From Candidatus Uhrbacteria bacterium (GTDB lineage Bacteria > Patescibacteriota > Patescibacteriia > UBA9934), in the NCBI GenBank assembly GCA_030688135.1, contig JAUYIW010000067.1:23982-87981 (forward strand): a stretch of 64,000 nucleotides of DNA. The letters run 5' to 3'. The notes below the pieces were generated by a model. That model saw only the letters and a program-made list of their open reading frames with translations. It did not search any database and had not been told where the DNA came from. The stretch's first letter is position 1. Every line of letters starts with the position of its first letter. Of the stretch, positions 17 to 39,996 are shown piece after piece. The position numbers and the translations under genes were made by a program.

Positions 17-1642
17 TTAGTCTTGGTTGGCCAGCGCTGTTTCTGCGGGCAACTCACCGCGCAAGTAGTCGAACAGCGTACCAGCCTCGAAGTGCTCGAG
101 CATGCTGTCGACCAAATTGACCAACCTCTCACTACCACCCAGGTAATTATGTTGCTGTCCTGTAACATGCATTCCTGGCAGGTTATGCCAATATGCGAAA
201 TCCTTAAAGCCGTGCAACTTCTCCTTGTTTGCACGCAAGAATGCCATGGTGTCAGCAACCATTTCACCCATCAACGGGAACACGCCAGTATCGCTCCAAC
301 GGCCAATAAAGAACATGTACGGCACGCCCTTTTTGAAGCCAAATAGGAACGGGTCGATAAGTGCCTGCCAAGCTGGATCTTGCCACTCACGCCCAGCAAT
401 ATCGTGGTACGGGGTGAAAATCACCACGTAATCGAAATGCTGCTTGGCCTTCATGATGGCTCGCAAAATGTGCGGCGGAATTACATCGCCCTGGTACTGA
501 GCCAAGCGCCTGGTTCGACGATTGAAGATTTGGTACAGGTTGGCAAATTCTTGCGTGCCGAGCAGGCTCGCAAAATACTGCACCGCTACGTCTGGTTGCG
601 GATCTGACTGATTCCAGGTGTCTGGCAGGCTATCCTTGGCCTCGATAAACCACACCGGAGCAGCCACCAACAGATCGGCCACGTGCGCGATGGGAATCAC
701 CGAGCATGGCTGTAGCAACTCTGCGTCCCGCAAGAACCGCACCGTTTCGGTAAACAGCCTCGAAGATTGGAGTTGTGCCTCCATAGTTCCCGCCTCGCCG
801 AAACCAGTTCGGTTCCTGCGAATATTCAGGCTACTGGGACTGCCAACCAGCATATGCAGAGCCGAAATCGACATGCGGCTTCCTGGCGACAACACACCAA
901 CTTGTCGTAAGTTCTGCAACACAGCGATGGTGGAGAGAAACAGCGCGTACTCGCTCTCAATGAGCGAAGCCTGCGTAGCGAAACCAAGTTCGCTCTGCAT
1001 GCTAACTGCCATCTCTACCGAGCGCTTCTCGGCCTCGCTACCAGCTGCATCGAGGTCGAATACGACATCGTAGGTAGAAAGTCCAGTGAAGGTTTCTTCT
1101 AGAAACTTAGCCACCAACTCTCGAGCATCGTCCGCATCTTGAATCTCGACTAGCTCGTCGAGCTCGATGCCAATCACTTGCTTGAGTGGCTTGTTGGCAA
1201 TTGCTTTCCGCACCTGCTCGGCCGGAATCGCCTTCACTCGTTTGTGGTAGGCATAGCGCCGAACCAAGCTTGGCAGCTGAGCAGCCTCTCCCTGCAAAAC
1301 AGGAAGGTATACAGCATTCGACACGCCGATTGCTCGAAACTTGCCTTCGCGCTTGTTATCACCGATGAGCGTAAACTCAACCATGGCTCCAACAGTCAAC
1401 GTAAAATCGCTCTCGTCCTGATGCACGAAAACATCTCCGTTGGTATCGAACTGCTCACCCTCGATGGTGGTGATGTTATTGATGAATCCGTAACCATTGG
1501 GCATTTCGACAACTGTGCCGATAAGCCTTGGAAGCACACGGACTGTGGCCTCGGGCCTTGAAAGAACACTTGCAACAGGCATTGCTGACTCCAGTAACGA
1601 CCAGACAGCAGGAAAACCAACAGATTTGGCCCCTGAACTCAT
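17..1642 (-). CDS. hypothetical protein with N-terminal cold-shock (CSD/OB-fold) domain; high-GC island gene
   Basis: 541-aa ORF. The motif GTVVEMPNGYGFI...DVFVHQDES matches the cold-shock domain signature (GxVKWFNxxKGFGFI...DVFVH). GC content is far above the AT-rich genome background. The rest of the protein is unrecognised. The true start may be an internal Met. Confidence 0.5.
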   Translation of the reverse strand: MSSGAKSVGFPAVWSLLESAMPVASVLSRPEATVRVLPRLIGTVVEMPNGYGFINNITTIEGEQFDTNGDVFVHQDESDFTLTVGAMVEFTLIGDNKREGKFRAIGVSNAVYLPVLQGEAAQLPSLVRRYAYHKRVKAIPAEQVRKAIANKPLKQVIGIELDELVEIQDADDARELVAKFLEETFTGLSTYDVVFDLDAAGSEAEKRSVEMAVSMQSELGFATQASLIESEYALFLSTIAVLQNLRQVGVLSPGSRMSISALHMLVGSPSSLNIRRNRTGFGEAGTMEAQLQSSRLFTETVRFLRDAELLQPCSVIPIAHVADLLVAAPVWFIEAKDSLPDTWNQSDPQPDVAVQYFASLLGTQEFANLYQIFNRRTRRLAQYQGDVIPPHILRAIMKAKQHFDYVVIFTPYHDIAGREWQDPAWQALIDPFLFGFKKGVPYMFFIGRWSDTGVFPLMGEMVADTMAFLRANKEKLHGFKDFAYWHNLPGMHVTGQQHNYLGGSERLVNLVDSMLEHFEAGTLFDYLRGELPAETALANQD

Positions 1643-1669: not shown

Positions 1670-1698
1670 GTTTTATCATATTTATTGAACTTTGTCAA
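1670..1698 (-). promoter_or_regulatory. putative promoter with CTTGACAAAG -35 context for the CSD-protein gene
   Basis: The minus strand reads CTTGACAAAGTTCAATAAATATGATAAAAC upstream of the ATG at 1642. The -35 TTGACA is clear; the -10 is weak. Confidence 0.3.
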
Positions 1699-1827: not shown

Positions 1828-2730
1828 CTAGCCCGGAGCGAAAATGAGCGGATAGTTCACGACCACGATGCCGCCACCATTGGGCTTGGGGAACTGAAGC
1901 TTGCGGAACTCGCCAGCGATACAGCTCTCGACCGTCGGGTCGTTCATGGTCGAGGAGCTCGTCTCCGCCTTGGAGACACTCCCGTTCTTCGCAATGACGA
2001 ACTTGGTCACGACCTTGCCACCGAGCTCTGGGTCCTTCTCGAGCTCGCGCTGGTAGCAGTAACGGATCTGGTTCATATGTCGCTTGATCACCGCGTCGAT
2101 GAGTGACTTGTCAAGCGCGCCCATGATGATCGGGTCGCCACCAACCATACCACCACCCAGGCCATAGTTCCGAGATCCGAGGCCGCTACCGTAGCCAGAC
2201 GAACCATCGCTGCGACCCTTGGTCCCGAGACCACCGAGACCTTCGGCTGTGCCGCCACCTCCGAGACCGGAGCTCTTGGAGCCAAGGCCACCAGAGCCGA
2301 TCTGGGTGCCCTTGGCACCGATCAACCCCCCGATACCACTGGTGAGGTCTGCGTCGAACCTAATGGAGCCGAACACACCGTCGAACTCGGAGCCGTCACG
2401 AAGTCCCCCGAGCACACCGGCATTCTCCTTGATCTCCTTGTCGAGCTCACGCTTCTGCATCTCGACCTTGTTGCCCTTCGCCTTTACCACATCGGCCGAA
2501 GCGGGCGCTTTGGGCTTCGAGGCCTGAACCGGGTCGGGCGTCGACGCGGACTGCTCTACCGGTGCGACGACAATGTCATCAGCTGGTGTCTCGATTTTCT
2601 TTACGAGTAACGCCGCATCTGCTTGCCTCTCGAGCGCTTCGAACTCATCGAGAACGTCTTGTACGTCGTCAGCCTTCGCAGTGGACGTTGTGGCGAAAAC
2701 CGCCAGGAAAAGAATGAATGCATAACGCAT
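1828..2730 (-). CDS. secreted Gly-rich protein with TonB-C-terminal-like (AgmX/PglI-type) C-terminal domain
   Basis: N-terminal signal peptide (MRYAFILFLAVFATTSTAKA). Central Gly/Ser-rich low-complexity region. The C-terminus (DPIIMGALDKSLIDAVIKRHMNQIRYCYQREL...GGIVVVNYPLIF) resembles the TonB C-terminal / AgmX-PglI fold. High GC. Confidence 0.5.
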   Translation of the reverse strand: MRYAFILFLAVFATTSTAKADDVQDVLDEFEALERQADAALLVKKIETPADDIVVAPVEQSASTPDPVQASKPKAPASADVVKAKGNKVEMQKRELDKEIKENAGVLGGLRDGSEFDGVFGSIRFDADLTSGIGGLIGAKGTQIGSGGLGSKSSGLGGGGTAEGLGGLGTKGRSDGSSGYGSGLGSRNYGLGGGMVGGDPIIMGALDKSLIDAVIKRHMNQIRYCYQRELEKDPELGGKVVTKFVIAKNGSVSKAETSSSTMNDPTVESCIAGEFRKLQFPKPNGGGIVVVNYPLIFAPG

Positions 2731-2783: not shown

Positions 2784-2815
2784 ATTATAATAGCAATAAA
2801 CCCAACTTTTGTCAA
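2784..2815 (-). promoter_or_regulatory. sigma70-like promoter (TTGACA-N17-TATTAT) with shared TTGACAAAAG context
   Basis: The minus strand reads GTTTGACAAAAGTTGGGTTTATTGCTATTATAAT upstream of the 1828..2730 gene. It is followed by the palindrome CTTACGTACTTCAGTGTACGTAAG (2754-2781) in the 5' leader. Confidence 0.45.
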
Positions 2816-3065
2816 ACTACGGAGGGAGGATCATACAGCAACCAATCAATACCCCGGGTACAGATGAATCAGAACCTGACTAAAGCCCGAATGAAAGTAT
2901 TTTAAACAAAAAGCAGGCCACTAAACCCGCTTTCTACAATATTTGACATTTGAGCTTTCTGATTTGATATTTCGCCTGCATCCTTAACCTCTTCAGCGTC
3001 CGAGTAATCTCTCTTTAACCTCTCCACAATCAGTATAACCTCTCTCCACCTTCCGAGCACCCAAA

Positions 3066-5131: not shown

Positions 5132-5249
5132 AGTTTTTTGCTCTTTGCAAGGGAGTGAGCTTGATCCCGCATTCTATACTCAATGCACCACTCATCGGGA
5201 AAAACGCTCAATCGGCACAATCTCAGTCCAATACAATCCAAACACACAG

Positions 5250-5267
5250 TCCAACATCTAGCGTTGA
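5250..5267 (-). repeat. isolated copy (reverse orientation) of the 18-bp iteron TCAACGCTAGATGTTGGA at the edge of high-GC island 1
   Basis: The plus strand reads TCCAACATCTAGCGTTGA. This is the reverse complement of the motif found three times at 40243-40378. Confidence 0.6.
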
Positions 5268-5470
5268 CATATCAGCGCGGAGTACTCAAGAATTGCGATG
5301 CACACTCCACGCATCCTCCTGGCCGCCATAGCTTTAGCGACGGTGGCTGAACGCGCGAACTCCGGCAACATTGCAATCTGAGAGATTTCGGTGACACATA
5401 TCCTTAAACACGTATTCATGAACCTACTCTCCAGTGTTATTTTACCAAACTTTTTCTAAAATAAAAGAGC

Positions 5471-5570: not shown

Positions 5571-5610
5571 CCTGCCTGCTGCCTGCCTGCCGGCAGGCAG
5601 GGCAGGCAGG
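5571..5610. repeat. perfect GC-rich palindrome built from CCTGCCTGCC units
   Basis: The sequence is CCTGCCTGCTGCCTGCCTGCCGGCAGGCAGGGCAGGCAGG. A related (CCTGCCTG)n-CCGGC tract recurs at 40045-40069 beside another high-GC island. Confidence 0.7.
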
Positions 5611-5685
5611 TCCAAAGATCTCCGAGCGCCAAGCTACCAAGCGTGCCCCGTACCGAGCTATGCTCTGGTGCGGGGTTCCAAGTGC

Positions 5686-6387
5686 CTACTCCCAGAGGAC
5701 AGACAACGACGTGAAATAGAACCAGTCGTCGAGGCGGCGGGCGTCCAGGCGCGCCCAGTCACTGTGACGGTCGACGCTCGGCGAGTCCATCCACGCATCG
5801 CAGTCGGGGACGTTCAGCTCGAGACCGCAGGCCAGAACCCACGGAACGGTATCGCCGTCGATCTGGCGAACCCAGTCGGGGTCTTGCGCGGCAGCGTAAA
5901 ATACGGCGAAGTGTGCCGAATCCTTGCCACGCACGGCCTTGGCGACCGTTCCGTCCTTGCGGTTGAAGTGCGCGCCGAGGTCCACGACCTCGATGCGCAC
6001 GCAATCGCGGTAGACGGGTACGATCGTGTTGCCACCCTCGTCCTGCAGGTATCGAACACGATTTTCGTCGATCCCACTGGCGTAGGCGAGATCCCACTGC
6101 CAGAAGTCCGTTCCGAAAGTGTCGCGCATGCGGTCGCGGGCGTAGGGCAGCAACTCATGCGCAAGACCGTCACCGAGATACGGCGACACTACGATGTTCA
6201 GCATGTTGTTGTTCTGGCTCTCTGCGTTGAACCGCGCAATGCGACTCTCGGCTTCCTTCTGCGCCGAGTCGATCATACCTCCCTTCACCCCCGGCCAGCT
6301 CCGTACCATTTCGAGCTTGTCCTTGAGTGGGCGGAATCGGCCGTGGATGAGGCGGAAAGCGTCGTGCTTGCGCATGGTGACGAGCAT
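5686..6387 (-). CDS. hypothetical protein (high-GC island 1)
   Basis: 233-aa ORF with balanced composition. The overlapping plus-strand 369-aa ORF is an Arg/Ala/Val-rich GC shadow. A hairpin (CCCCGTACC...GGTGCGGGG) follows the stop. No family recognised. Confidence 0.45.
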   Translation of the reverse strand: MLVTMRKHDAFRLIHGRFRPLKDKLEMVRSWPGVKGGMIDSAQKEAESRIARFNAESQNNNMLNIVVSPYLGDGLAHELLPYARDRMRDTFGTDFWQWDLAYASGIDENRVRYLQDEGGNTIVPVYRDCVRIEVVDLGAHFNRKDGTVAKAVRGKDSAHFAVFYAAAQDPDWVRQIDGDTVPWVLACGLELNVPDCDAWMDSPSVDRHSDWARLDARRLDDWFYFTSLSVLWE

Positions 6388-6390
6388 GGC

Positions 6391-6510
6391 CTACACCGCT
6401 TTCGGAGTTTGGCTGAGCTTCTTCGCATCTTCAGCCGTGAGCCCTGCCGCGTTAAGAACACGGTAGAGCTCGATTTCGGTTCCCTTGTCTATTTTGTAAA
6501 GGCTGGCCAT
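6391..6510 (-). CDS. small ORF (39 aa) immediately upstream of, and in frame with, the 233-aa ORF
   Basis: The sequence is MASLYKIDKGTEIELYRVLNAAGLTAEDAKKLSQTPKAV. A GGAGG motif lies 8 nt upstream. A TAG stop plus one codon separate it from the downstream ATG in the same frame. Confidence 0.25.
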   Translation of the reverse strand: MASLYKIDKGTEIELYRVLNAAGLTAEDAKKLSQTPKAV

Positions 6511-6669
6511 GTGGCTTACCCTCCTTGTTTCGCCGTCGGCTAACCTTACACCCTGAACTTACAGGAGTCTGACTGACCAGTTTGTTAAATACGGCTCTTT
6601 GAAGTCGATAAACTACAAAAAGCCATATTCAACATTAAAACTTGGTATTATTATATTAATGAACAAGGC

Positions 6670-6701
6670 ATGAATATAGCATTTATTAGCGATTTTGTCA
6701 A
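6670..6701 (-). promoter_or_regulatory. sigma70-like promoter (TTGACA-N17-TATATT) for the island-1 minus-strand operon
   Basis: The minus strand reads CTTGACAAAATCGCTAATAAATGCTATATTCATGCC. It shares the CTTGACAAA context with the other island promoters. Confidence 0.45.
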
Positions 6702-6775
6702 GTCTACTCAGCTAAAATTAGCCAATATTCTGGTGACGTCTCTAAGAGACGTCCCTTTTCTCTTATTTTATTCAA

Positions 6776-6925
6776 GATCCTCCGCTCACCGAGAGATCCT
6801 TCATCGGCTCTATTTTTTTAGGATGTCCTGCTCCCTCAGGATGTCCTACTCCGCCGGCCACCTCAGCGTCAGAATAACCCCTTCGCATCCAGAATAACCC
6901 CTCCGCCAATCGTATAACCCCATTG
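6776..6925. repeat. dispersed repeat, family E, copy 1
   Basis: AGATCCTTCATCGGCTCTA...CCTCAGGATGTCC...CCACCTCAGCGTCAGAATAACCCCTTCG. It is followed by three short ATAACCCC repeats. A second copy lies at 22884-22995. Confidence 0.6.
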
Positions 6926-7056
6926 CATTCGAACCAATCCCCCTCCCAAAACACAGCCCCTTTGCGCCCCTTTCAAATTTCGACTATAATATTGCAAGCA
7001 GAGGCTACCCTTGATATTTTTCGATCTGGAAATACATACCATATAGTGAAACAAGT

Positions 7057-8538
7057 ATGAATGACGACAACTCGGTTGATTTTCTAAAAAAGAAATACAA
7101 CCTGGCACCTGATCGCAATAGCGCCAAACGTCAAAAAAAGGTTTTACGAACTGCAGGCGTTTTTTTGACTCTTATTGCACTTGGCGGTGTCTTTTTTTCA
7201 TACAACATTTCTAAAATAGCCATTGAGCCAGCATCAGACAGCGGAGGGTTTTCTATACTTTCATCTTTCCGCAGACTTGTTACAAGTGATGAAAAAGAAC
7301 TTATTGGCGAAGAAGACGATCGCATAAACTTCCTTCTAATGGGAATTGGTGGCGCTGGCCACGACGGACCCGAACTTACAGATACATTAATGTTCGCAAG
7401 TTTCCGCCCATCTACAAACAAAATCGGAATTATGTCTATTCCGCGTGACCTTATTGTTCCAATCCCAGGTTACGGTTATCAAAAAATTAATCACGCAAAC
7501 GCCTACGGAGAACTTAACGAAGATGGCGCTGGCCCGGAACTTGCAACAGAAGTTATAAGTGAACTTTTAGACCAAGAAATCCACTACACTGTTAAAGTTG
7601 ACTTTCAGGGCTTCGAGGATTTGATCGACGCGATTGGTGGAATCAATGTTTTTGTTGAACGTTCATTTGTTGATCCAACATATCCAACTGACGACCACTT
7701 AACTGAATTTATTGAATTTGAAGAAGGCTGGAAGAAAATGGATGGTGATTTTGCACTAAAGTACGCTCGTTCTCGCCACGGCACAAATGGTGAAGGCTCT
7801 GATTTTGCACGCGCTGCGCGTCAACAAAATATTTTAATGGCTGTAAAAGATAAAATGCTCTCCCCTTCTGTTTTACTAAATCCAGGTAAACTTAATAGTC
7901 TAATTGAAACATTTAAAGACAACGTTAAAACTAATCTTACCTTTTGGGAAATGATTAAACTGGCTCGTTATGCACCAGACGTTAATACTGAAAACATCAA
8001 CCACGAGGTTTTAGATGCAAGTTCGGAAAGTCCGCTTTACTCTACAACGATCAACGGTTCATACGTGCTAATGCCAAAACTCGATAACTGGTCAGAAGTT
8101 CGATCGATTGCAGAAAATATATTTACAGCAAGTAGCTTAAATGGATCTGAAGTAGCTGAAGCTACAAAACCAATGGAATCTGCGCGCGTAGAAATCCAAA
8201 ACGGTACAAGCCTATCTGGTCTAGCGTTTGAAACGTCCCAACTTCTTGCAAGTTCTGGCGTTGAGGTTGTAAAAATTGGCAACGCTGAATCTCGAGGATA
8301 TACCAAAACAATCATCTACGATTTAACAGAAGGCGAAAAATCAGACGGTTTAAACGTATTAAAGGAGTTTTTAGGAGCAGATGTTGCCATGTCTACTACC
8401 GGATGGATATTTTCGGACGAAGTTGTCCCTCGCGAGCTCAGTGTTGGAACTCCAGGAGTTGATCTTGCAACATCTGATGAAGCTATTGACTTTTTGATCA
8501 TTTTAGGGGAGAATACGGCAAACTTGGTAATGCGGTAA
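7057..8538 (+). CDS. LytR-CpsA-Psr (LCP) family cell-envelope phosphotransferase
   Basis: N-terminal TM segment. LCP core motifs are present (INFLLMGIGGAGHDGPELTDTLMFASF, IPRDL, ALKYARSRHG, RQQNIL), followed by a LytR_C-like C-terminal domain. Confidence 0.8.
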   Translation: MNDDNSVDFLKKKYNLAPDRNSAKRQKKVLRTAGVFLTLIALGGVFFSYNISKIAIEPASDSGGFSILSSFRRLVTSDEKELIGEEDDRINFLLMGIGGAGHDGPELTDTLMFASFRPSTNKIGIMSIPRDLIVPIPGYGYQKINHANAYGELNEDGAGPELATEVISELLDQEIHYTVKVDFQGFEDLIDAIGGINVFVERSFVDPTYPTDDHLTEFIEFEEGWKKMDGDFALKYARSRHGTNGEGSDFARAARQQNILMAVKDKMLSPSVLLNPGKLNSLIETFKDNVKTNLTFWEMIKLARYAPDVNTENINHEVLDASSESPLYSTTINGSYVLMPKLDNWSEVRSIAENIFTASSLNGSEVAEATKPMESARVEIQNGTSLSGLAFETSQLLASSGVEVVKIGNAESRGYTKTIIYDLTEGEKSDGLNVLKEFLGADVAMSTTGWIFSDEVVPRELSVGTPGVDLATSDEAIDFLIILGENTANLVMR

Positions 8539-8654
8539 CTGCAAGGGTCCTAAGATGTACAGATCAGTACGAATATACAAATATATAGATAAATTTGAAC
8601 CAGAAATCTGTATATCTGTAAAAATCCGTACATCCTCGGTACCTTGCTACTTCT

Positions 8655-10022
8655 ATGACCCCTCCAAAAATTGCAATAATAGGTAGAACAAACGTCGGGA
8701 AATCGACGCTTTTTAATCGTTTAGTTGAGGCCCAAAAATCCTTGGTGTCTGAAGTCCCCGGAACTACCAGAGATAGATTTGAAGCAGACTGTATTTGGCG
8801 TGGAAAAGTTGTACGACTTATAGACACTGGTGGACTTGATACAAAAGCATCTGATCAAATTGAGCGCGACATTGCGCTTCAGGCTCGCGCAGCAATCAAG
8901 GAAGCAGATGTAATACTTTTTATTGTTGACGCAATAGCAGGATTGCAAAAAGAAGACAGAGATCTTGCTAAGGAATTAATGAAAACAAAAAAGCCAGTTA
9001 TCGTAGCTGCAAACAAAGCCGATAACGCCAGGATTCGCTCAAGGCTAACCGACAAAGAATGGTTTAACTGGTCACTCGCAACTCCGATGGCAGTTTCTGC
9101 AAAACAAGGAATTGGTGCTGGTGATTTGCTAGATGAAATATTTAATAAGCTAAAAGAGATCGGACTTGAGCCAACAGAAATCTCCGAAATCGCACTTACA
9201 CGTGTGGCTGTTGTTGGACGACCGAACGTTGGCAAGTCTTCCCTACTAAACGCTGCTCTTGGAGAACACAGATTTATAACATCGGAAATAGAACACACAA
9301 CACGCGAACCAAACGATACCTTAATGAGCGTTGACGGTCATGATTACCTTTTTGTAGATACTGCCGGTGTTCGAAAAATGGCGCGCGTAAACGCAGGAAA
9401 TTCAAAACTCGAAAAGTCAGGTGTAGACAAAACACTTCGTGCAGTTCGCAGAGCTGACGTTGCATTGTTTGTAATCGACATCACAAAAAAAATATCTTCG
9501 CAAGACAAACATCTTGCGGGAATGCTAGCAGCAGCTGGAGCAAGTACAATTTTGATCGCAAATAAATGGGACCTTATTCCTGACAAAGACTCAAAAATGA
9601 TTAATGAGTACGAAAGATATCTTCGTGCTATGCTCCCAATGCTCGACTACGCGCCAATATTATTCACGTCTGCCCTAACCGGTCAACGTGTCCAAACGCT
9701 ATTCGATATAATCGATAAAGTTTACCAAAGTCGGTTTACACAACTTACTAAAAATGAAACTCGCGAGTTTATTAGTCGTGCAATTGTGAAACACAAACCA
9801 TCACGAGGAAAAGGTATTGCACACCCTCATATTCGTTACTTTGAACAAGGTAATGTAAACCCGCCAACATTCTTCCTTGGACTAAAACAAGCCCGCAAAG
9901 ATGTTTTGGCAGATTCTTATCTTAGATTTTTAGAAAACCAACTTAGAAAAAGTTTTGATTTTGAAGGTACGCCGATTCGAATTGTAGTAAAATCTCGAAC
10001 TAGAACCGTAGAAGAGAAATAA
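8655..10022 (+). CDS. der: ribosome-associated GTPase Der (EngA)
   Basis: Two tandem GTPase domains, each with a P-loop (GRTNVGKST and GRPNVGKSS), followed by a KH-like C-terminal domain. Confidence 0.9.
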   Translation: MTPPKIAIIGRTNVGKSTLFNRLVEAQKSLVSEVPGTTRDRFEADCIWRGKVVRLIDTGGLDTKASDQIERDIALQARAAIKEADVILFIVDAIAGLQKEDRDLAKELMKTKKPVIVAANKADNARIRSRLTDKEWFNWSLATPMAVSAKQGIGAGDLLDEIFNKLKEIGLEPTEISEIALTRVAVVGRPNVGKSSLLNAALGEHRFITSEIEHTTREPNDTLMSVDGHDYLFVDTAGVRKMARVNAGNSKLEKSGVDKTLRAVRRADVALFVIDITKKISSQDKHLAGMLAAAGASTILIANKWDLIPDKDSKMINEYERYLRAMLPMLDYAPILFTSALTGQRVQTLFDIIDKVYQSRFTQLTKNETREFISRAIVKHKPSRGKGIAHPHIRYFEQGNVNPPTFFLGLKQARKDVLADSYLRFLENQLRKSFDFEGTPIRIVVKSRTRTVEEK

Positions 10023-10120
10023 AATACAAACCCTAAATTCTAGACTCTAACCTCTAAATAAATCCAAAATTCAAATTTATTTAGGATTTCTGTTTCGAGC
10101 TTAAAATTTATATGACCCTA

Positions 10121-10173
10121 CTGATAACTGGTCTTGGAAACCCAGGCAAAAAATATCAAAGCACACGCCACAA
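10121..10173 (+). repeat. partial duplicate of the pth 5' end (remnant)
   Basis: CTGATAACTGGTCTTGGAAACCCAGGCAAAAAATATCAAAGCACACGCCACAA mirrors pth codons 3-20. A 24-nt stretch is identical to 10275-10298 and the rest has diverged. Confidence 0.6.
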
Positions 10174-10236
10174 ACCACCCCAAACCCATCCTGAGGAGCA
10201 CTGCATTTCAACGACGAAGGATCTTTTGCAAAAAAT

Positions 10237-10803
10237 ATGACAAAACTTATTGTAGGATTAGGTAATCCCGGCTCAAAATATCAAAGCACACGCCACAATC
10301 TAGGCTTTATGATACTCGACCGCTTGGCTGAAAAGCTCAATGCTAGCTGGAGCGAGGATTTAAAAACATTGGCCGATGTCGCTGAACTTAATCTTGACGG
10401 TGTTAAGGTAATTTTAGCAAAGCCAATGACGTACATGAATAAGTCTGGCGAAGCTGTTGGTGCGCTAGCGCGGAAGTTTAAAGTTGAGTCTGGTGATGTC
10501 TGGGTAGCGCATGATGATGTTGACCTTCCATTTGGTCGATTGCGCGTTCGGCTTGATGGTTCTGCCGGCGGGCACAAAGGGGTTCAAAGTGTAATTGATA
10601 GTCTTCAAGCTAATGATTTTGTACGTTTAAAAGTTGGAGTTGGCGGAACACCTGAAAAAATGGCACTTGAAGATTGGGTGCTCTCAAAGTTCACAAAAGA
10701 AGAGCTCGATGTGTTAGAAGGATTAGTGGAGCAAGTAACAAATAAAATAATAGACGCGATTAAGTCTGGAAGTTTAGAAAATATAACCGAGAACCTTGAG
10801 TAA
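10237..10803 (+). CDS. pth: peptidyl-tRNA hydrolase
   Basis: LIVGLGNPGSKYQSTRHNLGF N-terminal signature. The conserved His/Asp catalytic region is present. 188 aa. Confidence 0.9.
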   Translation: MTKLIVGLGNPGSKYQSTRHNLGFMILDRLAEKLNASWSEDLKTLADVAELNLDGVKVILAKPMTYMNKSGEAVGALARKFKVESGDVWVAHDDVDLPFGRLRVRLDGSAGGHKGVQSVIDSLQANDFVRLKVGVGGTPEKMALEDWVLSKFTKEELDVLEGLVEQVTNKIIDAIKSGSLENITENLE

Positions 10804-10832
10804 GGGCAGGCCAGCATGTCTGCCCTTTTGGT
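10803..10832 (+). terminator. rho-independent terminator after pth
   Basis: AGGGCAGGCCAGCATGTCTGCCCT hairpin followed by TTTTGG. Confidence 0.55.
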
Positions 10833-11073
10833 TAATTCACTGCACCATTTCTACGACGGCGTTTGTCGGGAGGAGAAATCTTTTTTTCTTGTCATCCTGA
10901 CCCTAAGCGAGCCGTAGGCGAGTCGAAGGGGAAGAATCTTTCACTGACAGAATGCGGACTTTTAAGAATGTAAGTTTATTGGGTCACCTTGCTATAAATG
11001 CATATTTGACTCAGTCGGCAGAAAAATACTGTACTCCGGCTACCAATTTTAGCTAATCTCAGCCAAGTGGACT

Positions 11074-11102
11074 TGACAAAAGTGGTTATTTATGATATAT
11101 TA
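11074..11102 (+). promoter_or_regulatory. near-consensus sigma70 promoter (left arm of the island-3 inverted repeat)
   Basis: CTTGACAAAAGTGGTTATTTATGATATATT has TTGACA, a 16-17-nt spacer and TATATT. It is a 29-nt inverted repeat of 12038-12066. Confidence 0.55.
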
Positions 11103-11166
11103 TTAAGTTCCAAAAATGGCCAAACCGTGGCCAGCAACCTTTCAACCCAAAAAAATGGAGGCCAAA

Positions 11167-11616
11167 ATGGCCACCGAAGACGCACACGAATTCATGTTGA
11201 ACCTGGTAGCAGATCAGGCAACCCGAATGGCTATCCTGGCTGCGGGCGGCACGATCGAGCCCAAGGAGTACTATGGAGCAGAGTACCACCACGTAGTGCT
11301 CCCGATGGAAAGCCTGCTCGAGGAGCGAATCCTATATGGAGATGGCCCCATGCGCTACGTCGGCCTCTGCAAGCTGATTGACGGCCAGTGGATCAAGGTC
11401 GCCCCCGCCAATCGCGAGTCGCTCGACCAAATCGGACAGATCGCCCTTTGCGATCTGGACGAAGAGATCCAGCTGTGGACCGATCGCCGTGAGCGACTGC
11501 GCAGAGCCGGAGTCCACATACGCCCAGACTGGGCGGTAGGACTCGCTCCGCATCCGGACTTCCCCGACCCCAGGGGCACAATCCCCGGAGTCAGGCCGGC
11601 TTGCCTCGAATCCTGA
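11167..11616 (+). CDS. hypothetical protein (high-GC island 3)
   Basis: The start was chosen at the ATG preceded by GGAGG (ATGGAGGCCAAAATG). About 150 aa with balanced composition. The longer 11116 start has no RBS. No family recognised. Confidence 0.4.
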   Translation: MATEDAHEFMLNLVADQATRMAILAAGGTIEPKEYYGAEYHHVVLPMESLLEERILYGDGPMRYVGLCKLIDGQWIKVAPANRESLDQIGQIALCDLDEEIQLWTDRRERLRRAGVHIRPDWAVGLAPHPDFPDPRGTIPGVRPACLES

Positions 11617-11665
11617 TCGGCACTGACCCCCGAGTGACGCAAGTCATTCGGGGGTCGTTCTTTTT
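11617..11665. terminator. bidirectional rho-independent terminator shared by convergent genes
   Basis: CCCCCGAGTGACGCAAGTCATTCGGGGG hairpin followed by TCGTTCTTTTTTAT. Confidence 0.6.
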
Positions 11666-11726
11666 TATATGAAAACCGCCCACACAAAAGTGCAGGCGGT
11701 GTCGGGCAGGATGCCCTAGTGCCGAA

Positions 11727-12017
11727 CTATCCGGCGAGTTGCTCGAGAATCCGCTCGAGCTCGGGTTCGGCCGTCAAGTTAGTCGAGTAGACCACACCGT
11801 CCTCAGTAAGTACGTAGTACCCAACGAGACCGGCGCGAACCGCTATCACCTTGTTGGCAATGGTCGACCAGCCTTGAGTGGTCTCGAGATGACCGCCATC
11901 CTGCCATCCCATGAGTCCACCCCCAACTGCGTAGCAGTCAAAAACGTGGCCGACGGATGCGATTGAGAAAACCGACGCCACAAATGCGGCAAAAAAGATC
12001 TGGATCCAGCTTCTCAT
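11727..12017 (-). CDS. small secreted hypothetical protein (high-GC island 3)
   Basis: 96 aa with an N-terminal signal peptide (MRSWIQIFFAAFVASVFSIASVG). An AAGGAG RBS precedes the ATG. It is convergent with the 11167 gene. Confidence 0.4.
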   Translation of the reverse strand: MRSWIQIFFAAFVASVFSIASVGHVFDCYAVGGGLMGWQDGGHLETTQGWSTIANKVIAVRAGLVGYYVLTEDGVVYSTNLTAEPELERILEQLAG

Positions 12018-12037
12018 TTTGTCTCCTTTTATGTTTC

Positions 12038-12066
12038 AAGACAAATGAATATATCACAAATAACCA
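12038..12066 (-). promoter_or_regulatory. near-consensus sigma70 promoter (right arm of the island-3 inverted repeat)
   Basis: The minus strand reads GTTGACAAAAGTGGTTATTTGTGATATATT followed by an AAGGAG RBS. Confidence 0.55.
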
Positions 12067-12499
12067 CTTTTGTCAACCTCAAATCCCTAATTCCTATGAC
12101 TAATAACCTACCGGACAACCACATTTTGTTGCCCTACACGTTTTATAATCTCTAAATCCCAAATATATGCTAAAATGCTCTAAACCTCTCCGTTTGTCGT
12201 TTAACCCCTCTTTAACCCCTTAGCAACCTGAATAACCTCCCTCAAATGCCCCAAAATTCAGACCTCAAATGCTGACTAGTAACGAGCGTTTAACTATACT
12301 TATCAACCAATAATTTACTCTTTGTCGCCTTTCTGAGCACGCCCGGATTTGGTCGGGCAGGAGGCAGGAATAGCATTTTTAACCCTTGCATAACTTTTAT
12401 TAAAACCTGAAATATAGAATACAAGGCGTCCAAAATGCCCTGACGTATACCTGACCTAATGCCGGGCAGGCGCAGGATGGAGAAGTAAACAATTAGAAT

Positions 12500-13576
12500 A
12501 TGTCTTCCGACCTCAAATACTGGCTTGCGCTGAATGTGTACCCAAAATTCGGTCCAAAATCATTGGCCCGACTTTTTAACTATTTCGATTCAATGGAAGA
12601 GGCATTTTCTGCGCCATTAAGCGAAATCAAGCAAGCTGGCATTCCAGAAAAAATAGCTCAAGGCTTCACCGAAATGCGCGAAAATATAAATCCTAACGCC
12701 ACCCTTGCCGAGCTTGAACAACACGGCTTTAACGCAATCACGCTTGCCGACCCAAACTATCCTGCTCACCTTAAACAAATTTACGACCCACCGGCTGTTA
12801 TAAATATTTGGGGTACGCTTCCCTCTTCTGAAATCGCTCATCTTGCAGTTGTAGGATCTCGCCAAGCAACTCCGTACGGCCTTAGAGTTACGCGCGGTTT
12901 AATAGAAGAAGTTGCAGAAGCGGGCGTTGTGATTGTAAGTGGTCTAGCATATGGAATCGATGAAGTAGCTCACCTTGCAACAGTAAATGTTCGTGGACTT
13001 ACCGTGGCAGTTCTCGCGTCTGGCCTTTTAAGCATTAACGGCCGACAAAAAGCAATAGCACAAAAAATTGTACAAACTGGCGGAGCGGTCATTAGTGAAT
13101 TCTCGTTAAATGCCCCAGGCCAAAAACAAAACTTCCCTTTTCGAAACCGTGTTATAAGTGGAATGTGCCAAGGTACGCTAGTTGTGGAAGCTGCAGAAAA
13201 ATCTGGTTCGCTTATTACTGCACGCACAGCAATGGAACAAAACCGCGAGGTTTTCGCAATCCCCGGTCCAATAACGTCGCCAACTTCGTACGGCACAAAT
13301 AATCTAATAAAATTTGGCGCCACACCGGTAACTTGCGCAGAAGATATTTTAGATGGTCTTAATATTGAATCGCGCCCTAATGCAAAGCCTAAACCAAAAC
13401 CAGCCTCAACCGAAGAAGCATTAATTATAGAAACTCTTTCCAAGCAACCAGTACACATCGATAACATTACGCGAATTACTAAACTCCCACCTAATAAAGT
13501 TAGCAGTACGCTCTCACTCATGGAAATAAAAGGCAGGGCTCGCCATGTTGGGGGGAGATACTATATACTAGTTTGA
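12500..13576 (+). CDS. dprA: DNA processing protein DprA (Smf)
   Basis: Rossmann-like DprA core motifs: VVGSRQATPYG, IVSGLAYGID, SGSLITAR, FAIPG. Confidence 0.85.
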   Translation: MSSDLKYWLALNVYPKFGPKSLARLFNYFDSMEEAFSAPLSEIKQAGIPEKIAQGFTEMRENINPNATLAELEQHGFNAITLADPNYPAHLKQIYDPPAVINIWGTLPSSEIAHLAVVGSRQATPYGLRVTRGLIEEVAEAGVVIVSGLAYGIDEVAHLATVNVRGLTVAVLASGLLSINGRQKAIAQKIVQTGGAVISEFSLNAPGQKQNFPFRNRVISGMCQGTLVVEAAEKSGSLITARTAMEQNREVFAIPGPITSPTSYGTNNLIKFGATPVTCAEDILDGLNIESRPNAKPKPKPASTEEALIIETLSKQPVHIDNITRITKLPPNKVSSTLSLMEIKGRARHVGGRYYILV

Positions 13577-13637
13577 CAAGAAGCTCGAAATCCTAAAATC
13601 TAAATCCTAAATAAACTCAAAATCCAATCTGCAAAAT

Positions 13638-14930
13638 TTGAATTTTCGATCTATGCCAAATTTCAAAATAGCATACGACTCTCTGCTCAGTCTTTCAAAC
13701 CTTCAACTAAGGCAATATTCAGATTCAAAAATAGAACTTAAGCGATCGCTTGCTAGAACAAAGACATTACTAAAATTACTTGGAAGTCCCGAAGAGAAAC
13801 TTAAATTTGTTCACATTACAGGAACAAGTGGTAAAGGATCCGTTGCAAATATGATGCATCAAATTCTTGTAGCAGATGATCGCAAAGTTGGAACGTACAC
13901 CTCGCCACATTTAACAAGTTACCTTGAGCGATTTCAGATTAACGACAAATTCATCGACCCAGAACTACTAGCCAGATGTATTCTCGATGTTATTAATGCT
14001 TACTCGCGCCTCCTTGGTAAAGGTGAAAGCGAATTATCATTTTTTGAACTCTCTACCGTTTTAGCTCTTTATGCGTTTCATGAAGCCGGTTGCAAATGGT
14101 GCGTATTGGAAGTTGGATGTGGCGGTCGATACGACGCAACAAATATAATCCCAACGCCAAAGATTGCAATAATTACAAACGTGGATAAAGACCACACAGA
14201 AATACTAGGTGATTCACTTTCAAAAATTGCTTACGAAAAAGCTGGCATAATAAAAAATAAAGGCTTTGTTCTTTGTGGAGAATCAAGGCCTGCGCTACGT
14301 AAGATTTTCATGAAAGAAGCAATCCAAACTCAAGCAGCATTATTTTTTATCAATCAACCTACTTCTGAAATTATAGATGGTAAGTTCGGTCTACATCAGC
14401 AACACAATGCCGCGCTTGCCGAACGCGCTGCCTTTGAGCTTGGAGTTGACCCTCATGTGATAGCGTCCACGCTTAAGAACTTCAAAAAACCAGCATGCAG
14501 ATTTGAAACAGTTCAAAATAATCCTTTGTTAATTCTTGACGGCGCTCATAGCCCGGCAAAAATTAAAGCCGCAGTACGAATGATCAAAAAACTAAATCAA
14601 CCAGTGCATATTTTATTTGGTTGTACTGCTACAAAAGATGCACAAGAATTGATAGATCAACTAAATGAAGTTGCAAAAACAATAACAACAACACGATTTA
14701 CAACAACATTCCGAAAGGCTTCAAATCCGGCACGGCTTCTTTCTTTTGTACAAAAAAGTAAACGGGCTGGATTTTTTCTAGATCCGCAAGAAGCGCTAGA
14801 GCACATTAGGAAACTCACAAAAAATGGTGAGGCTATTGTTGTAACCGGTTCACTTTATCTTGCCGGAGAGCTCAGAGCCGAGTGGGTTTCTGAATCTGAG
14901 ATCTTAAAAAAACGATCAAATAGCTTGTAA
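13638..14930 (+). CDS. folC: folylpolyglutamate synthase / dihydrofolate synthase (Mur ligase family)
   Basis: P-loop ITGTSGKGS. TSPHL motif. Mur-ligase middle and C-terminal domains. Confidence 0.75.
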   Translation: MNFRSMPNFKIAYDSLLSLSNLQLRQYSDSKIELKRSLARTKTLLKLLGSPEEKLKFVHITGTSGKGSVANMMHQILVADDRKVGTYTSPHLTSYLERFQINDKFIDPELLARCILDVINAYSRLLGKGESELSFFELSTVLALYAFHEAGCKWCVLEVGCGGRYDATNIIPTPKIAIITNVDKDHTEILGDSLSKIAYEKAGIIKNKGFVLCGESRPALRKIFMKEAIQTQAALFFINQPTSEIIDGKFGLHQQHNAALAERAAFELGVDPHVIASTLKNFKKPACRFETVQNNPLLILDGAHSPAKIKAAVRMIKKLNQPVHILFGCTATKDAQELIDQLNEVAKTITTTRFTTTFRKASNPARLLSFVQKSKRAGFFLDPQEALEHIRKLTKNGEAIVVTGSLYLAGELRAEWVSESEILKKRSNSL

Positions 14931-15037
14931 TCATAAGCGAACGCAATAATAAGTAAAATGCTCCCGACCAACGCGGGAGTATTGTTTTTTACATCCTCGA
15001 ATGTGTATTGATTTATATTGTGTCCACGCAACCCTAA

Positions 15038-15054
15038 GGGTTGCGGTTGCGAAT
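15038..15054. repeat. REP-like 17-nt palindrome GCAACCCTAAGGGTTGC (copy 1)
   Basis: Perfect palindrome. One of four copies flanking the RAYT gene. Confidence 0.75.
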
Positions 15055-15150
15055 CACAATGTTATCAACACTTGACTTACTTGCTAAAAAATGCTAAAAA
15101 TAAAGTACTCCCCATTACTGCGGGAGTTTTATTTATGCATTCTCGCATAT

Positions 15151-21830: not shown

Positions 21831-22090
21831 AAGAACATTCAAAATGTTAAAGTCGATCAGATTAATTTTGACGATTAAAATAGAATCACCAGACCCGCCT
21901 TGTCATTACGAAGAGGCCGTTTTTCGTGACGAAGTAATCTATCTTTTCTGCCATCCTGAGGAGCTCGTAATGGATCATACGCAATTTGGGTGGAGAATGC
22001 ATAGAGGCCAAAGGTTAGCTCAACCGGTAAAAACAGCGAATCTCTTGCTTTCTACCATCTCGAACCCGACTTAACTTTCTGCTGTCGGGC

Positions 22091-22200
22091 GAGAGATCTT
22101 TCGAACCCCACCATCTCGAGGAGCTTGCAATCCACGACGAGAGATCTTTCGAACCCCACCATCTCGAGGAGCTTGCAATCCACGACGAGAGATCTTTCGC
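22091..22200. repeat. 48-bp tandem repeat, about 2.3 copies
   Basis: The unit GAGAGATCTTTCGAACCCCACCATCTCGAGGAGCTTGCAATCCACGAC is repeated head-to-tail. Confidence 0.8.
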
Positions 22201-22995: not shown

Positions 22996-23036
22996 TACCT
23001 GCTTAACGATTCCTACTTACCCTAAACTACCCTCTC

Positions 23037-39339: not shown

Positions 39340-39368
39340 TTGACAGAACGGCAATTTTGTTCTATAGT
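39340..39368 (+). promoter_or_regulatory. near-consensus sigma70 promoter (TTGACA-N17-TATAGT) for the island-4 gene
   Basis: TTGACAGAACGGCAATTTTGTTCTATAGT. It is followed by a ~150-nt GC-rich structured leader (39369-39519) containing the hairpin GCCCTTTTGAAAAAGGGC just before the RBS. Confidence 0.5.
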
Positions 39369-39519: not shown

Positions 39520-39996
39520 ATGAGTAAGTTCGAAGGTTCCCGTGCCATGGCGCACCTCCTGGATCAGCTCGGCGACGAGCGCTTCGCAGCTCTGATCGAC
39601 TCGGCCAACACCGGGAAGGTCAAGGAGCTCTGCGATGCCCTCGTGAGGAATACACCCTCTCTCCCGACGGAGATGACGATCAATGGCCGCACCTACGATA
39701 TCCTCGGCTTCCTGCGGGAAGACGAGACGTCGGTGCTCAACCACGAGATGATCACGCGCGCCAAGAACATGAACGCCCACCTCGGGGAGGACGACTGCGA
39801 GTACCTGCTGGACAACCAGCAGGATATCCCCGTGAGTTTGCGGCGCAAGGTCGTGTTCGTCTTCACCTACTGGCGTGGCTCCGGCGACTCCGAGGATGTC
39901 TGCTACGTCTTTTGGGACCACGTCGTCTGGTTTCGGAGCTGGGACAGGGGCTTCAGCATCTGGAGTGGCGACTATCGGGTGCTCCGTCGCAAGTAG
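39520..39996 (+). CDS. hypothetical protein (high-GC island 4)
   Basis: 158 aa with balanced composition. An RBS-like GGGAGATAAACAG precedes the ATG. The antisense 177-aa ORF is a GC shadow. No family recognised. Confidence 0.45.
   Translation: MSKFEGSRAMAHLLDQLGDERFAALIDSANTGKVKELCDALVRNTPSLPTEMTINGRTYDILGFLREDETSVLNHEMITRAKNMNAHLGEDDCEYLLDNQQDIPVSLRRKVVFVFTYWRGSGDSEDVCYVFWDHVVWFRSWDRGFSIWSGDYRVLRRK

What the first reader, a model, noticed from the sequence alone, without database searches (positions are those of the whole stretch)
11074..12066. Symmetric two-gene cassette with inward-facing identical promoters in a 29-nt inverted repeat
A 29-nt inverted repeat bounds a ~1-kb high-GC segment. 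The left arm is CTTGACAAAAGTGGTTATTTATGATATATT at 11074-11102 and its reverse complement lies at 12038-12066. Each arm is a textbook TTGACA-N17-TATATT promoter pointing inward.

The two promoters drive convergent genes, 11167..11616 and 11727..12017. The second encodes a 96-aa secreted protein. Both genes terminate on a single shared bidirectional hairpin at 11617-11665. A promoter-bearing terminal inverted repeat around cargo genes resembles a non-autonomous mobile cassette. It could also be a toxin/immunity or effector pair.
Basis: seen in the sequence. Interest (0 to 1): 0.7.

Follow-up and report, generated by a model that had tools for sequence, protein, structure and literature searches.

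The report
Two back-to-back foreign genes sharing one promoter
The 29-base inverted repeat is real, but it is two copies of one strong promoter, each driving its own small high-GC gene of unknown function inserted between two housekeeping genes of a Candidatus Uhrbacteria genome, and it does not behave like the ends of a jumping element.

Summary
A 29-nt inverted repeat (11073-11101 and 12048-12076, 28/29) flanks a 55-66% GC segment in a ~42% GC Candidatus Uhrbacteria contig. Each arm is exactly one TTGACA-N17-TATATT promoter pointing inward. The genes end on two separate terminators, not one shared hairpin.

The mobile-cassette reading is not supported:
- There is no target-site duplication.
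- No other copy of the arm was found in the window or in the two collections scanned.
- Repeat identity stops exactly at the promoter hexamers.
- The pair is not found as a unit elsewhere. Gene 1 has three distant homologues, none next to a gene 2 relative. Gene 2 has no detectable relative.

Context explains the symmetry. Every high-GC gene in the window (six genes, five units) has its own consensus promoter and, where checked, its own terminator. Relatives carry similar units. The Pth-DprA gap is empty in one relative, holds different cargo in a second, and holds a gene 1 homologue in a third.

The element is therefore two tail-to-tail, moron-like single-gene units using paralogous copies of one promoter. 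Both gene functions remain unknown. Interest is moderate to low for the repeat and higher for the lineage-wide pattern.

The parts
11073..11101 (+). Left arm: promoter of gene 1. Sequence TTGACAAAAGTGGTTATTTATGATATATT, with -35 TTGACA, a 17-nt spacer containing a TATG (TRTG-type) -16 motif, and -10 TATATT.
11157..11161 (+). GGAGG ribosome-binding site, 5 nt upstream of the ATG at 11167.
   Evidence: The start at 11167 is also supported by alignment with homologue P0005. The public annotation instead starts at 11116 (166 aa).
11167..11616 (+). Gene 1, 149 aa, GC 0.61. Member of a four-protein family with no known domain or fold match.
11625..11667 (+). Terminator T1 of gene 1: a 14-bp G+C-rich stem (11625-11656) followed by a U-tract.
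   Evidence: (I3)
11660..11700 (-). Terminator T2 of gene 2: stem 11675-11700 followed by a U-tract read on the - strand.
11727..12017 (-). Gene 2, 96 aa, GC 0.56, hydrophobic N-terminus. ORFan: the only hit is itself.
12022..12026 (-). GGAGA ribosome-binding site of gene 2.
12048..12076 (-). Right arm: promoter of gene 2. Sequence TTGACAAAAGTGGTTATTTGTGATATATT, with its one difference from the left arm at the R of the TRTG motif.
10804..12499 (.). The whole Pth-DprA intergenic gap (1,696 nt). This is an insertion hot spot: 14 nt in relative L003, occupied by different cargo in L002 and L004.
2787..2815 (-). Same type of promoter (TTGACAAAAGTTGGGTTTATTGCTATTAT) driving the high-GC ORF 1828..2730 (300 aa, signal-peptide-like N-terminus). 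The unit lies just beyond the 3' end of HisRS.
6673..6701 (-). Same type of promoter (TTGACAAAATCGCTAATAAATGCTATATT) driving high-GC ORFs 6391..6510 and 5686..6387. Including upstream sequence, its 57 nt are 75% similar to the left arm region 11045-11101.
   Evidence: (I2)
39340..39368 (+). Consensus promoter (TTGACAGAACGGCAATTTTGTTCTATAGT) driving high-GC ORF 39520..39996 (158 aa), which is followed by a terminator.
1670..1698 (-). Promoter-like TTGACAAAGTTCAATAAATATGATAAAAC upstream of the 53% GC ORF 17..1642 (541 aa).

Best explanation
The element is two independent, tail-to-tail, single-gene accessory transcription units. Each is a strong sigma-70-type promoter, a short AT-rich leader with a Shine-Dalgarno site, one high-GC ORF and its own intrinsic terminator. 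Both sit in the Pth-DprA intergenic hot spot of a Candidatus Uhrbacteria (CPR) chromosome.

The 29-nt inverted repeat is simply the two promoters. They are paralogous copies of one promoter sequence, placed in opposite orientation because the two units are convergent. The likely functional result is strong and roughly equal transcription of both genes, with each transcript stopped by its own terminator so that the convergent transcripts do not collide.

The units work like phage 'morons' and sit in a site that behaves like a 'minimal mobile element'. The cargo between two conserved core genes differs between related genomes. It was probably exchanged by DNA uptake and recombination, not by transposition on the repeat.

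Shown:
- the repeat, the consensus promoter matches, the ORFs with coding periodicity, and the two terminators;
- the foreign base composition;
- the empty and differently filled sites in relatives;
- the gene 1 family occurring without gene 2.

Inferred:
- that the promoters fire;
- that one arm was copied from the other or from a common source;
- the route of acquisition;
- that gene 2 is exported.

The biochemical roles of both proteins remain unknown.
For: 1. Repeat identity coincides exactly with the promoter. The arms share all 7 spacer positions left free by the generic pattern (GTGGTTA). The single mismatch is a purine-purine change at the R of TRTG. Spacer identity is 16/17, against 3-12/17 for all other promoter pairs.

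2. The layout is general in this genome. In 64 kb the TTGACA-N16-18-TAnnnT matches are the promoters of the high-GC units at 2815, 6701, 11073, 12076 and 39340, plus tRNA-Met; a looser TTGAC-first-hexamer scan also picks up tRNA-Leu. All four TTGACAAAA occurrences are island promoters. Terminators follow the units where checked.

3. Relatives show the same kind of unit:
- L002 has a promoter at 6697, two high-GC ORFs and a terminator.
- L003 has two units, at 1107 (+) and 2423 (-), which also face inward but have non-identical promoters.
- L004 has a unit at 7186, and another beyond the 3' end of HisRS.

4. Synteny HisRS-SPase-LytR-Der-Pth-DprA-FolC is conserved. Pth and DprA are 14 nt apart in L003. 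L002 carries an IS plus unrelated cargo at that site. L004 carries a 29%-identical gene 1 homologue.

5. Gene 1 family members P0003, P0005 and P0009 lie in three other contexts without gene 2.

6. Composition is foreign: GC3 is 0.65-0.71 for the two genes against 0.27-0.35 for host genes.

7. The published definitions of morons (PMC3594210) and minimal mobile elements (PMC3082526) match these features.
Against: - No expression data exist, so promoter and terminator activity are consensus and folding predictions only.
- Only 64 kb of this genome and about 17 kb of each of three relatives were examined. Other copies of the arm could exist elsewhere in the MAG.
- Collection scans for the arm were exact-match only.
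- The mechanism that copied a 29-nt promoter in inverted orientation about 1 kb away is not identified.
- The flanks are not in a prophage, so this is not a moron in the strict sense.
- Intergenic flanks are too diverged between relatives to map recombination breakpoints.
- Part of the 'family' likeness among island promoters is generic. The same pattern occurs in 9 unrelated AT-rich viral contigs.
Confidence: 0.6

Rival explanations
1. One reading: a non-autonomous mobile cassette. The 29-nt arms are terminal inverted repeats recognised by a transposase supplied in trans, and they also happen to carry inward promoters.
For: A near-perfect 29-nt inverted repeat brackets foreign-composition cargo. 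The site is absent from relative L003. An IS with an integrase-core transposase lies at the same gap in L002, so transposition does occur in this lineage.
Against: There is no target-site duplication of 2-10 bp. No other arm copy was found in the window, metagenome contigs or viral contigs. Identity stops exactly at the -35 and -10 edges. Other high-GC units have one such promoter, not a pair. The L002 IS has unrelated TIRs (TGTTYAGTTAACCTT). The gap differs from the empty site by 1.7 kb, not by the 1,004-bp IR-bounded piece.
Confidence: 0.07
2. A functional two-gene module, such as an exported effector with a cytoplasmic partner or immunity protein. The two promoters are kept identical, spacer included, because one regulator binds both or because equal dosage is needed.
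For: Spacer identity goes beyond what sigma-70 contacts require. Gene 2 has an export-like N-terminus while gene 1 does not. The genes are adjacent and insulated by paired terminators.
Against: Gene 1 homologues in L004, in L082-L087 and on the P0009 contig have no gene 2 relative beside them. There is no match to known toxin, immunity or defence families. Known pairs of this kind are normally co-transcribed rather than convergent (general knowledge). No regulator gene is adjacent.
Confidence: 0.15
3. Independent convergence. Two unrelated promoters each evolved to the same optimum, so the repeat carries no historical or structural meaning.
For: The consensus pattern TTGACAAAA-N7-TTTATGMTATWTT is generic. 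It recurs in 9 unrelated AT-rich viral contigs and, loosely, at all island promoters.
Against: The arms also agree at all 7 spacer positions left free by that pattern. The chance of that is about 4^-7, or 6e-5 per pair, and roughly 1e-3 over the 15 pairs among the window's six island promoters. No other pair exceeds 12/17 in the spacer.
Confidence: 0.05
4. An invertible (phase-variable) segment, or an assembly artefact.
For: Inverted repeats flanking about 1 kb are the geometry of invertons.
Against: The promoters are the arms themselves, so inversion would change nothing. The nearest genes (Der, Pth, DprA, FolC) show no recombinase domain in the precomputed Pfam hits. Two assemblies agree base for base over 9.5 kb.
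Confidence: 0.03

Closest known systems
Phage 'morons' (Juhala/Hendrix concept; reviewed in Cumby et al. 2012, PMC3594210)
   Same: An independent transcription unit with its own promoter and terminator. It is inserted between genes that are adjacent in relatives, and its GC content differs from its neighbours. All four features are seen here.
   Different: The host DNA is a core chromosomal neighbourhood (Der, Pth, DprA, FolC), not a phage or prophage. No phage or viral relatives were found. Two units lie tail-to-tail and share one promoter sequence.
Minimal mobile elements of Neisseria (Saunders and Snyder 2002; definition quoted in PMC3082526)
   Same: Two conserved genes (Pth and DprA) have different whole-gene cargo between them in different genomes. 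No mobility genes or repeats are needed. This is plausible in a lineage that encodes DprA, a transformation protein.
   Different: The comparison here is between genomes with only 50-76% DprA identity, not between strains. Recombination through the flanks is inferred and not shown. The cargo is ORFan and markedly GC-richer than the host.
Correia repeat enclosed elements (CREE/nemis), MITEs whose inverted-repeat ends create promoters (PMC2649163)
   Same: A short inverted repeat of about 26-29 nt with promoter sequence at the ends.
   Different: CREE are 70-157 bp and carry no genes. They are present in many copies, duplicate a TA target, and generate promoters that act on adjacent (flanking) genes. 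Here the element is single-copy, has no duplication, carries about 950 bp of coding cargo, and its promoters read inward.
Genomic islands and individually transferred genes reported in groundwater Patescibacteria (PMC12455944)
   Same: A CPR genome with horizontally acquired segments. That paper attributes up to 13% of genome length to HGT, which is similar to the roughly 10% of this window.
   Different: A term search of that paper's main text found no mention of promoters, so promoter-to-terminator single-ORF units or promoter reuse are evidently not discussed. Its detected transfers are mostly between Patescibacteria, whereas the cargo here has no identifiable donor.

Membership tests
TIR-bounded non-autonomous transposon / MITE-like cassette | Terminal inverted repeats | tested here: met
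   The arms are 29 nt and match at 28/29. However, they coincide exactly with the promoter hexamers.
TIR-bounded non-autonomous transposon / MITE-like cassette | Target-site duplication directly outside the arms | tested here: not met
   The flanks are ...GTGGAC on the left and CCTCAA... on the right. No direct repeat of 2-10 bp is present.
TIR-bounded non-autonomous transposon / MITE-like cassette | Multiple copies of the ends in the genome or related genomes | tested here: not met
   Only the two arms occur in the 64-kb window at up to 3 mismatches. Exact-pattern scans gave 0 hits in metagenome contigs and viral contigs. The rest of the MAG was not available.
TIR-bounded non-autonomous transposon / MITE-like cassette | Empty site in a relative whose boundary coincides with the arm ends | tested here: not met
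   L003 has Pth and DprA 14 nt apart, so the whole 1.7-kb gap is missing, not only 11073-12076. The flanks cannot be aligned between relatives.
Phage moron | Own promoter and own terminator | tested here: met
   Consensus promoters score 11/12 with a TG extension. There are two intrinsic terminators with z-scores of -5.4 and -4.0. These are predictions only.
Phage moron | Inserted between genes that are adjacent in related genomes, with deviating GC content | tested here: met
Phage moron | Resides in a phage or prophage genome | tested here: not met
   The flanking genes are Der, Pth, DprA and FolC. There are no significant PHROG matches (best E-value 0.056) and no phage or IMG/VR relatives.
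Minimal mobile element | Two conserved genes with different whole-gene cassettes between them in different genomes | tested here: met
   At the Pth-DprA gap, the window has gene 1 plus gene 2. L002 has an IS plus unrelated ORFs of 128 and 161 aa. L004 has a secreted protein gene plus a gene 1 homologue. L003 is empty.
Minimal mobile element | Incorporated by homologous recombination in the conserved flanks after DNA uptake | not testable with these tools
   This needs strain-level genomes or transformation experiments. The only hint is that DprA is present.
Toxin-antitoxin or effector-immunity pair | The two genes co-occur across genomes | tested here: not met
   Gene 1 homologues occur without a gene 2 relative in the L004 and L082-L087 contexts; the neighbours on the P0009 contig could not be compared, because no DNA was available. 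Gene 2 has no homologue at all.
Toxin-antitoxin or effector-immunity pair | Similarity to known toxin, antitoxin, immunity or defence families | tested here: not met
Invertible promoter switch (inverton) | Orientation of the segment changes which gene receives the promoter; a recombinase lies nearby | tested here: not met
   The promoters lie in the arms, so inversion is neutral in outcome. No recombinase domain appears among the genes on either side.

The most novel reading that the evidence does not exclude
Uhrbacteria-type CPR chromosomes may carry a so far undescribed class of 'chromosomal morons'. These would be promoter-to-terminator, mostly single-ORF units of markedly higher GC than the host. 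Where homologues were searched (gene 1, gene 2 and the L004 homologue), the products have no relatives among 5.8 billion proteins outside a few similar contexts; the other units had no Pfam match above the curated cut-off. The units occupy recurrent hot spots between core genes (the Pth-DprA gap, the region beyond the 3' end of HisRS, and the SPase-LytR gap).

They are the only genes besides tRNAs to use near-consensus promoters. Promoter copies appear to be reused between units: the two arms, the 57-nt similarity to the 6701 promoter, and the AAGTGG spacer shared with units in L004 and at 2815. This would imply a dedicated way of installing and expressing genes from an unsampled high-GC gene pool, for example genes used in the interaction with a host cell.
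Probability: 0.25. Interest if true: 0.6.

Novelty: new variant of a known kind. Interest (0 to 1): 0.35.

Why it matters
The inverted repeat itself matters little. It is a by-product of two convergent units using copies of one promoter, and it should not be catalogued as a new mobile element.

The wider pattern is more useful. In this CPR lineage about a tenth of the sequence examined consists of GC-rich genes. The two in this element have no relatives outside a few similar contexts, and the others match no known protein family. Each has a textbook promoter and terminator, and they sit at recurring gaps between housekeeping genes.

If that holds genome-wide, it gives a simple sequence signature for finding the accessory genes of uncultured CPR bacteria: a consensus promoter followed by a jump in GC. 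These genes may also be strongly expressed. It also raises a concrete question about where such GC-rich genes come from and how they are installed.

Tried and rejected
- Domain searches of both proteins against Pfam, PHROGs, PADLOC and NCBIfam found nothing significant. The four other island proteins also had no Pfam hit above the cut-off.
- Word-indexed homology searches of gene 1, gene 2 and the L004 homologue returned only the query itself.
- A profile search of 1.84 billion representatives with gene 1 plus P0003 added two credible members (P0005, P0009). It also returned five long multi-stretch proteins, which I set aside without inspecting them as probably spurious, because each matches only a short segment of the profile, mostly in several stretches.
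- PDB sequence searches gave nothing significant.
- Phage and plasmid collections and IMG/VR gave no relatives of the proteins or the cassette DNA. Three other island proteins also had no viral relatives.
- A metagenome scan with the gene 1 family alignment recovered only the contig already known.
- Rfam gave only three tRNAs at gathering threshold, and one chance-level hit over the terminators.
- An upstream TTAGCTAA or GGCTA..TAGCC motif was considered as a shared operator. It was rejected as unproven because TTAGCTAA is not enriched in the window, the spacing varies, and the right arm lacks it.
- Integron cassettes were considered and rejected. The units are dispersed, carry their own promoters, and show no attC-like site or integrase.
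- Breakpoint mapping by aligning intergenic flanks with L002, L004 and L083 failed because only matches of 12-29 nt were found.
- Literature searches found no description of this pattern in CPR bacteria.
Full report
**1. Checking the observation**

The region was read directly. The repeat finder reports arms at 11073-11101 and 12048-12076, 29 nt long and 97% complementary, with 946 nt between them.

A search for the left arm allowing 3 mismatches finds only these two sites in 64 kb. None of 100 shuffles gave a match. The single mismatch is A versus G at arm position 20.

The consensus scan scores both arms as TTGACA-17-TATATT, with 11 of 12 matches and TG before the -10. Both read inward.

The enclosed DNA is 55-66% GC, against 41-42% on either side.

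The leading C of the quoted left arm is not part of the repeat.

The claimed single shared hairpin is wrong. There are two separate hairpins with a shared A/T tract between them:
- T1 lies at 11625-11656 on the + strand, followed by UUCUUUUUU (-29.8 kcal/mol, z -5.4).
- T2 lies at 11675-11700 on the - strand, followed by UUUUCAUAUAA (-27.8 kcal/mol, z -4.0).

An independent Logan assembly of run SRR13727534 is identical to window 5583-15088. The arrangement is therefore not an artefact of one assembler.

**2. The two genes**

ORF 11167..11616 (+, 149 aa) has GGAGG 5 nt upstream of its ATG. ORF 11727..12017 (-, 96 aa) has GGAGA upstream.

Both show the codon-position GC pattern of real high-GC coding sequence. 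GC1/2/3 is 0.69/0.43/0.71 for gene 1 and 0.60/0.43/0.65 for gene 2. The neighbouring housekeeping genes have GC3 of 0.27-0.35.

The public annotation starts gene 1 at 11116, giving 166 aa. The ribosome-binding site and the alignment with homologues favour 11167.

Neither protein has a significant match in Pfam, PHROGs, PADLOC or NCBIfam. In the 5.8-billion-protein collection each finds only itself. The source annotation there is 'Candidatus Uhrbacteria bacterium', loci Q8P30_03955 and Q8P30_03960.

The gene 2 model is unusable (pLDDT 51.7). Its export is suggested only by the hydrophobic N-terminus.

**3. Surroundings in the window**

The flanking genes are Der (8655-10022) and Pth (10237-10803) on the left, and DprA (12500-13576) and FolC (13638-14930) on the right.

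The window holds four more high-GC segments: 17-1642, 1828-2730, 5686-6510 and 39520-39996. Their ORFs show the same coding signature, with GC3 of 0.60-0.86. None has a Pfam match above the curated cut-off.

A scan for TTGACA-N16-18-TAnnnT over the whole window returns six sites. Five sit directly upstream of high-GC ORFs, at 2815, 6701, 11073, 12076 and 39340, and the sixth is the tRNA-Met promoter. A looser scan allowing any base at the sixth position of the -35 also finds the tRNA-Leu promoter.

All four occurrences of TTGACAAAA in 64 kb are island promoters. Terminator hairpins follow the island ORFs that I inspected.

The cassette is therefore one instance of a repeated layout: promoter, leader, high-GC ORF, terminator. 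Here two such units lie tail-to-tail.

**4. Is the arm identity more than 'two good promoters'?**

Alignment of the promoter regions shows that identity between the arms starts at the first T of the -35 and stops at the last T of the -10.

Eleven island promoters from the window and from related loci give a consensus of TTGACAAAA, about six free positions, WTTTRTGM, then TATATT. That reads as a -35, a TRTG-type -16 motif and a -10.

This generic pattern also occurs in nine unrelated AT-rich viral contigs, none with high-GC DNA downstream. Most of the family likeness is therefore functional convergence.

The arms, however, also agree at all seven spacer positions left free by that pattern (GTGGTTA). 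They score 16/17 in the spacer, while every other pair scores 3-12/17. The chance of seven free positions agreeing is about 6e-5 per pair.

I conclude that the arms are copies of one sequence. Their only difference, A/G, falls on the R of TRTG and so keeps the motif.

Some further reuse is suggested but not proven:
- The 57 nt ending at the left arm are 75% similar to the 6701 promoter region (pair I2).
- An AAGTGG spacer start recurs in a unit beyond the 3' end of HisRS in L004; the window promoter at 2815 has the similar AAAGTTGG.

**5. Tests of the mobile-cassette reading**

- There is no direct repeat of 2-10 bp outside the arms.
- There is no other arm copy in the window.
- The exact pattern, with R at the mismatch, gives no hit in metagenome contigs or viral contigs.
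- The cassette DNA has no match in plasmids.
- Neither protein has a match in phages or IMG/VR.

**6. Related genomes**

A scan of species-representative genomes with DprA returned three relatives with conserved synteny HisRS-SPase-LytR-Der-Pth-DprA-FolC. They are L002 (76% DprA identity), L003 (55%) and L004 (50%, Candidatus Uhrbacteria).

| Genome | Content of the Pth-DprA gap |
|---|---|
| Window | Gene 1 and gene 2, convergent, near-identical promoters |
| L003 | Empty; the two genes are 14 nt apart |
| L002 | An IS with its own, unrelated inverted repeats; then promoter TTGACAAAACCACCGAAATGTGCTAATAT, two high-GC ORFs unrelated to gene 1 or gene 2, and a terminator |
| L004 | A low-GC secreted-protein gene; then promoter TTGACAAAACCCTTTTTTTATGCTATATT, a high-GC ORF of 152 aa, and a terminator |

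In L003 the SPase-LytR gap, which is occupied in the window, is 86 nt.

The L004 protein is a distant homologue of gene 1, with 29% identity over 89 residues and a pairwise E-value of 9e-8.

L003 carries two further units beyond the 3' end of HisRS. Their promoters also face inward but are not alike, and a bS21 gene lies between them. Inward-facing promoter pairs therefore arise simply from how units are packed.

**7. The gene 1 family**

A profile built from gene 1 and the L004 protein was searched against 1.84 billion representatives. It added P0005 (160 aa, E 4e-15, 42% identical to gene 1 in the family alignment A3) and P0009 (148 aa, E 6.7e-7).

P0005 lies on seven groundwater contigs. 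On L083 it sits in a 65-69% GC segment within roughly 52% GC DNA. It follows a promoter, TTGACAAAAGGCCCATTTTATGATATTTT, and one extra ORF. Its downstream neighbour is a dCMP deaminase gene.

P0009 lies between unrelated genes on another contig.

In L004 and L083 no neighbour resembles gene 2; for the P0009 contig no DNA was available, so its neighbours could not be compared. The two-gene unit is therefore not found as a unit elsewhere.

**8. Explanation**

The best-supported account is two moron-like accessory units in a hot spot between core genes, driven by paralogous copies of one strong promoter.

The published definition of a moron is an independent transcription unit with its own promoter and terminator, with deviating GC content, found between genes that are adjacent in relatives (PMC3594210). 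This fits in every respect except that the host DNA is not a phage.

The site itself fits the definition of a minimal mobile element: different whole-gene cassettes between two conserved genes (PMC3082526). Incorporation by homologous recombination is inferred only.

Correia elements are the nearest known case of promoter-bearing inverted-repeat ends (PMC2649163). They differ in copy number, size, target duplication and lack of coding cargo.

How the promoter was copied is unknown. Candidates are a template switch, acquisition of both units from one source, or gene conversion.

**9. Verdict**

The repeat is real and non-random, but its meaning is ordinary. It is not a terminal repeat of a mobile element, and the gene pair is not a conserved system.

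The more interesting observation is lineage-wide. GC-rich genes with no family assignment (the two in this element are true ORFans), each with a consensus promoter and terminator, occupy recurring gaps between housekeeping genes. I found no description of this in the literature searched.

Interest is 0.35 for the finding as given. The novel reading is stated separately.

Noticed in passing
window 5242-5269 (-) and 40240-40378 (+, three copies spaced 57-62 nt apart): A 17-20-nt repeat, (T)GTCAACGCTAGATGTTGGA(C), occurs four times in the window. Shuffles give a mean of 0.17 matches, and none of 100 reached 4. Each time it lies just beyond the terminator end of a high-GC unit (the 5686 unit and the 39520 unit). 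It is absent near the 11-12 kb cassette. It could be a binding or recombination site linked to some islands.
   Followed up: partly
window 5579-5601 and 40046-40076: (CTGC)n-CCGGC tracts, partly palindromic (CTGCCTGCCTGCCGGCAGGCAGG), lie downstream of two different high-GC ORFs. There are 6 matches at up to 2 mismatches, against about 0.03 expected.
   Followed up: partly
window 6834-6919, 22923-22991, 12200-12250, 2980-3060; L002 5600-5700 and 7940-8000: C-rich intergenic stretches (GC skew down to -0.57) carry repeated GAATAACCCCTTCG / TAACCTCTCTTTAACCTCT motifs. They lie next to islands and upstream of core genes in both the window and relative L002. Their meaning is unknown.
   Followed up: no
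window 21830-23037: About 1.2 kb has no ORF of 80 aa or more apart from one 89-aa reverse-strand ORF. It contains a perfect 48-nt x2.3 tandem repeat (22090-22199) and a 192-nt x2.2 tandem repeat (22360-22776, 96% identical).
   Followed up: no
window 29372-29493 and 30847-30968: A 122-nt inverted repeat (86% complementary) has its left arm between the tRNA-Met (29228-29304, -) and tRNA-Leu (29545-29631, +) genes; the repeat encloses the tRNA-Leu and second tRNA-Met (29828-29904, +) genes. It is the longest inverted repeat in the window.
   Followed up: no
window 24884-25010, 34821-34947, 38077-38203: A 127-nt dispersed repeat is present in three copies (84-96% identity). It contains an internal 37-nt hairpin-forming inverted repeat and may be a small MITE-like or REP-like element.
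   Followed up: no
window 10110-10173 vs 10235-10298: The first ~64 nt of the Pth gene are duplicated 125 nt upstream (75% identity). This gives a short decoy ORF (10112..10240) that begins MTLLITGLGNPGKKYQSTRH, like Pth itself.
   Followed up: no
L002 5714-6692: A relative carries an IS in the same Pth-DprA gap. It encodes a 293-aa transposase-like protein (judged from its sequence by eye, not scanned), is bounded by TGTTYAGTTAACCTT inverted repeats, and ends 4 nt before the island promoter.
   Followed up: partly
window 11167-11616 (gene 1 protein residues 20-36 and 107-122): Gene 1 and its homologues contain a motif, R-x-A-x-L-x-AGG-x-I-x-P-x-[DE]-[YW], twice: once near the N-terminus and once after the C-terminal helix. 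This hints at an internal duplication.
   Followed up: no
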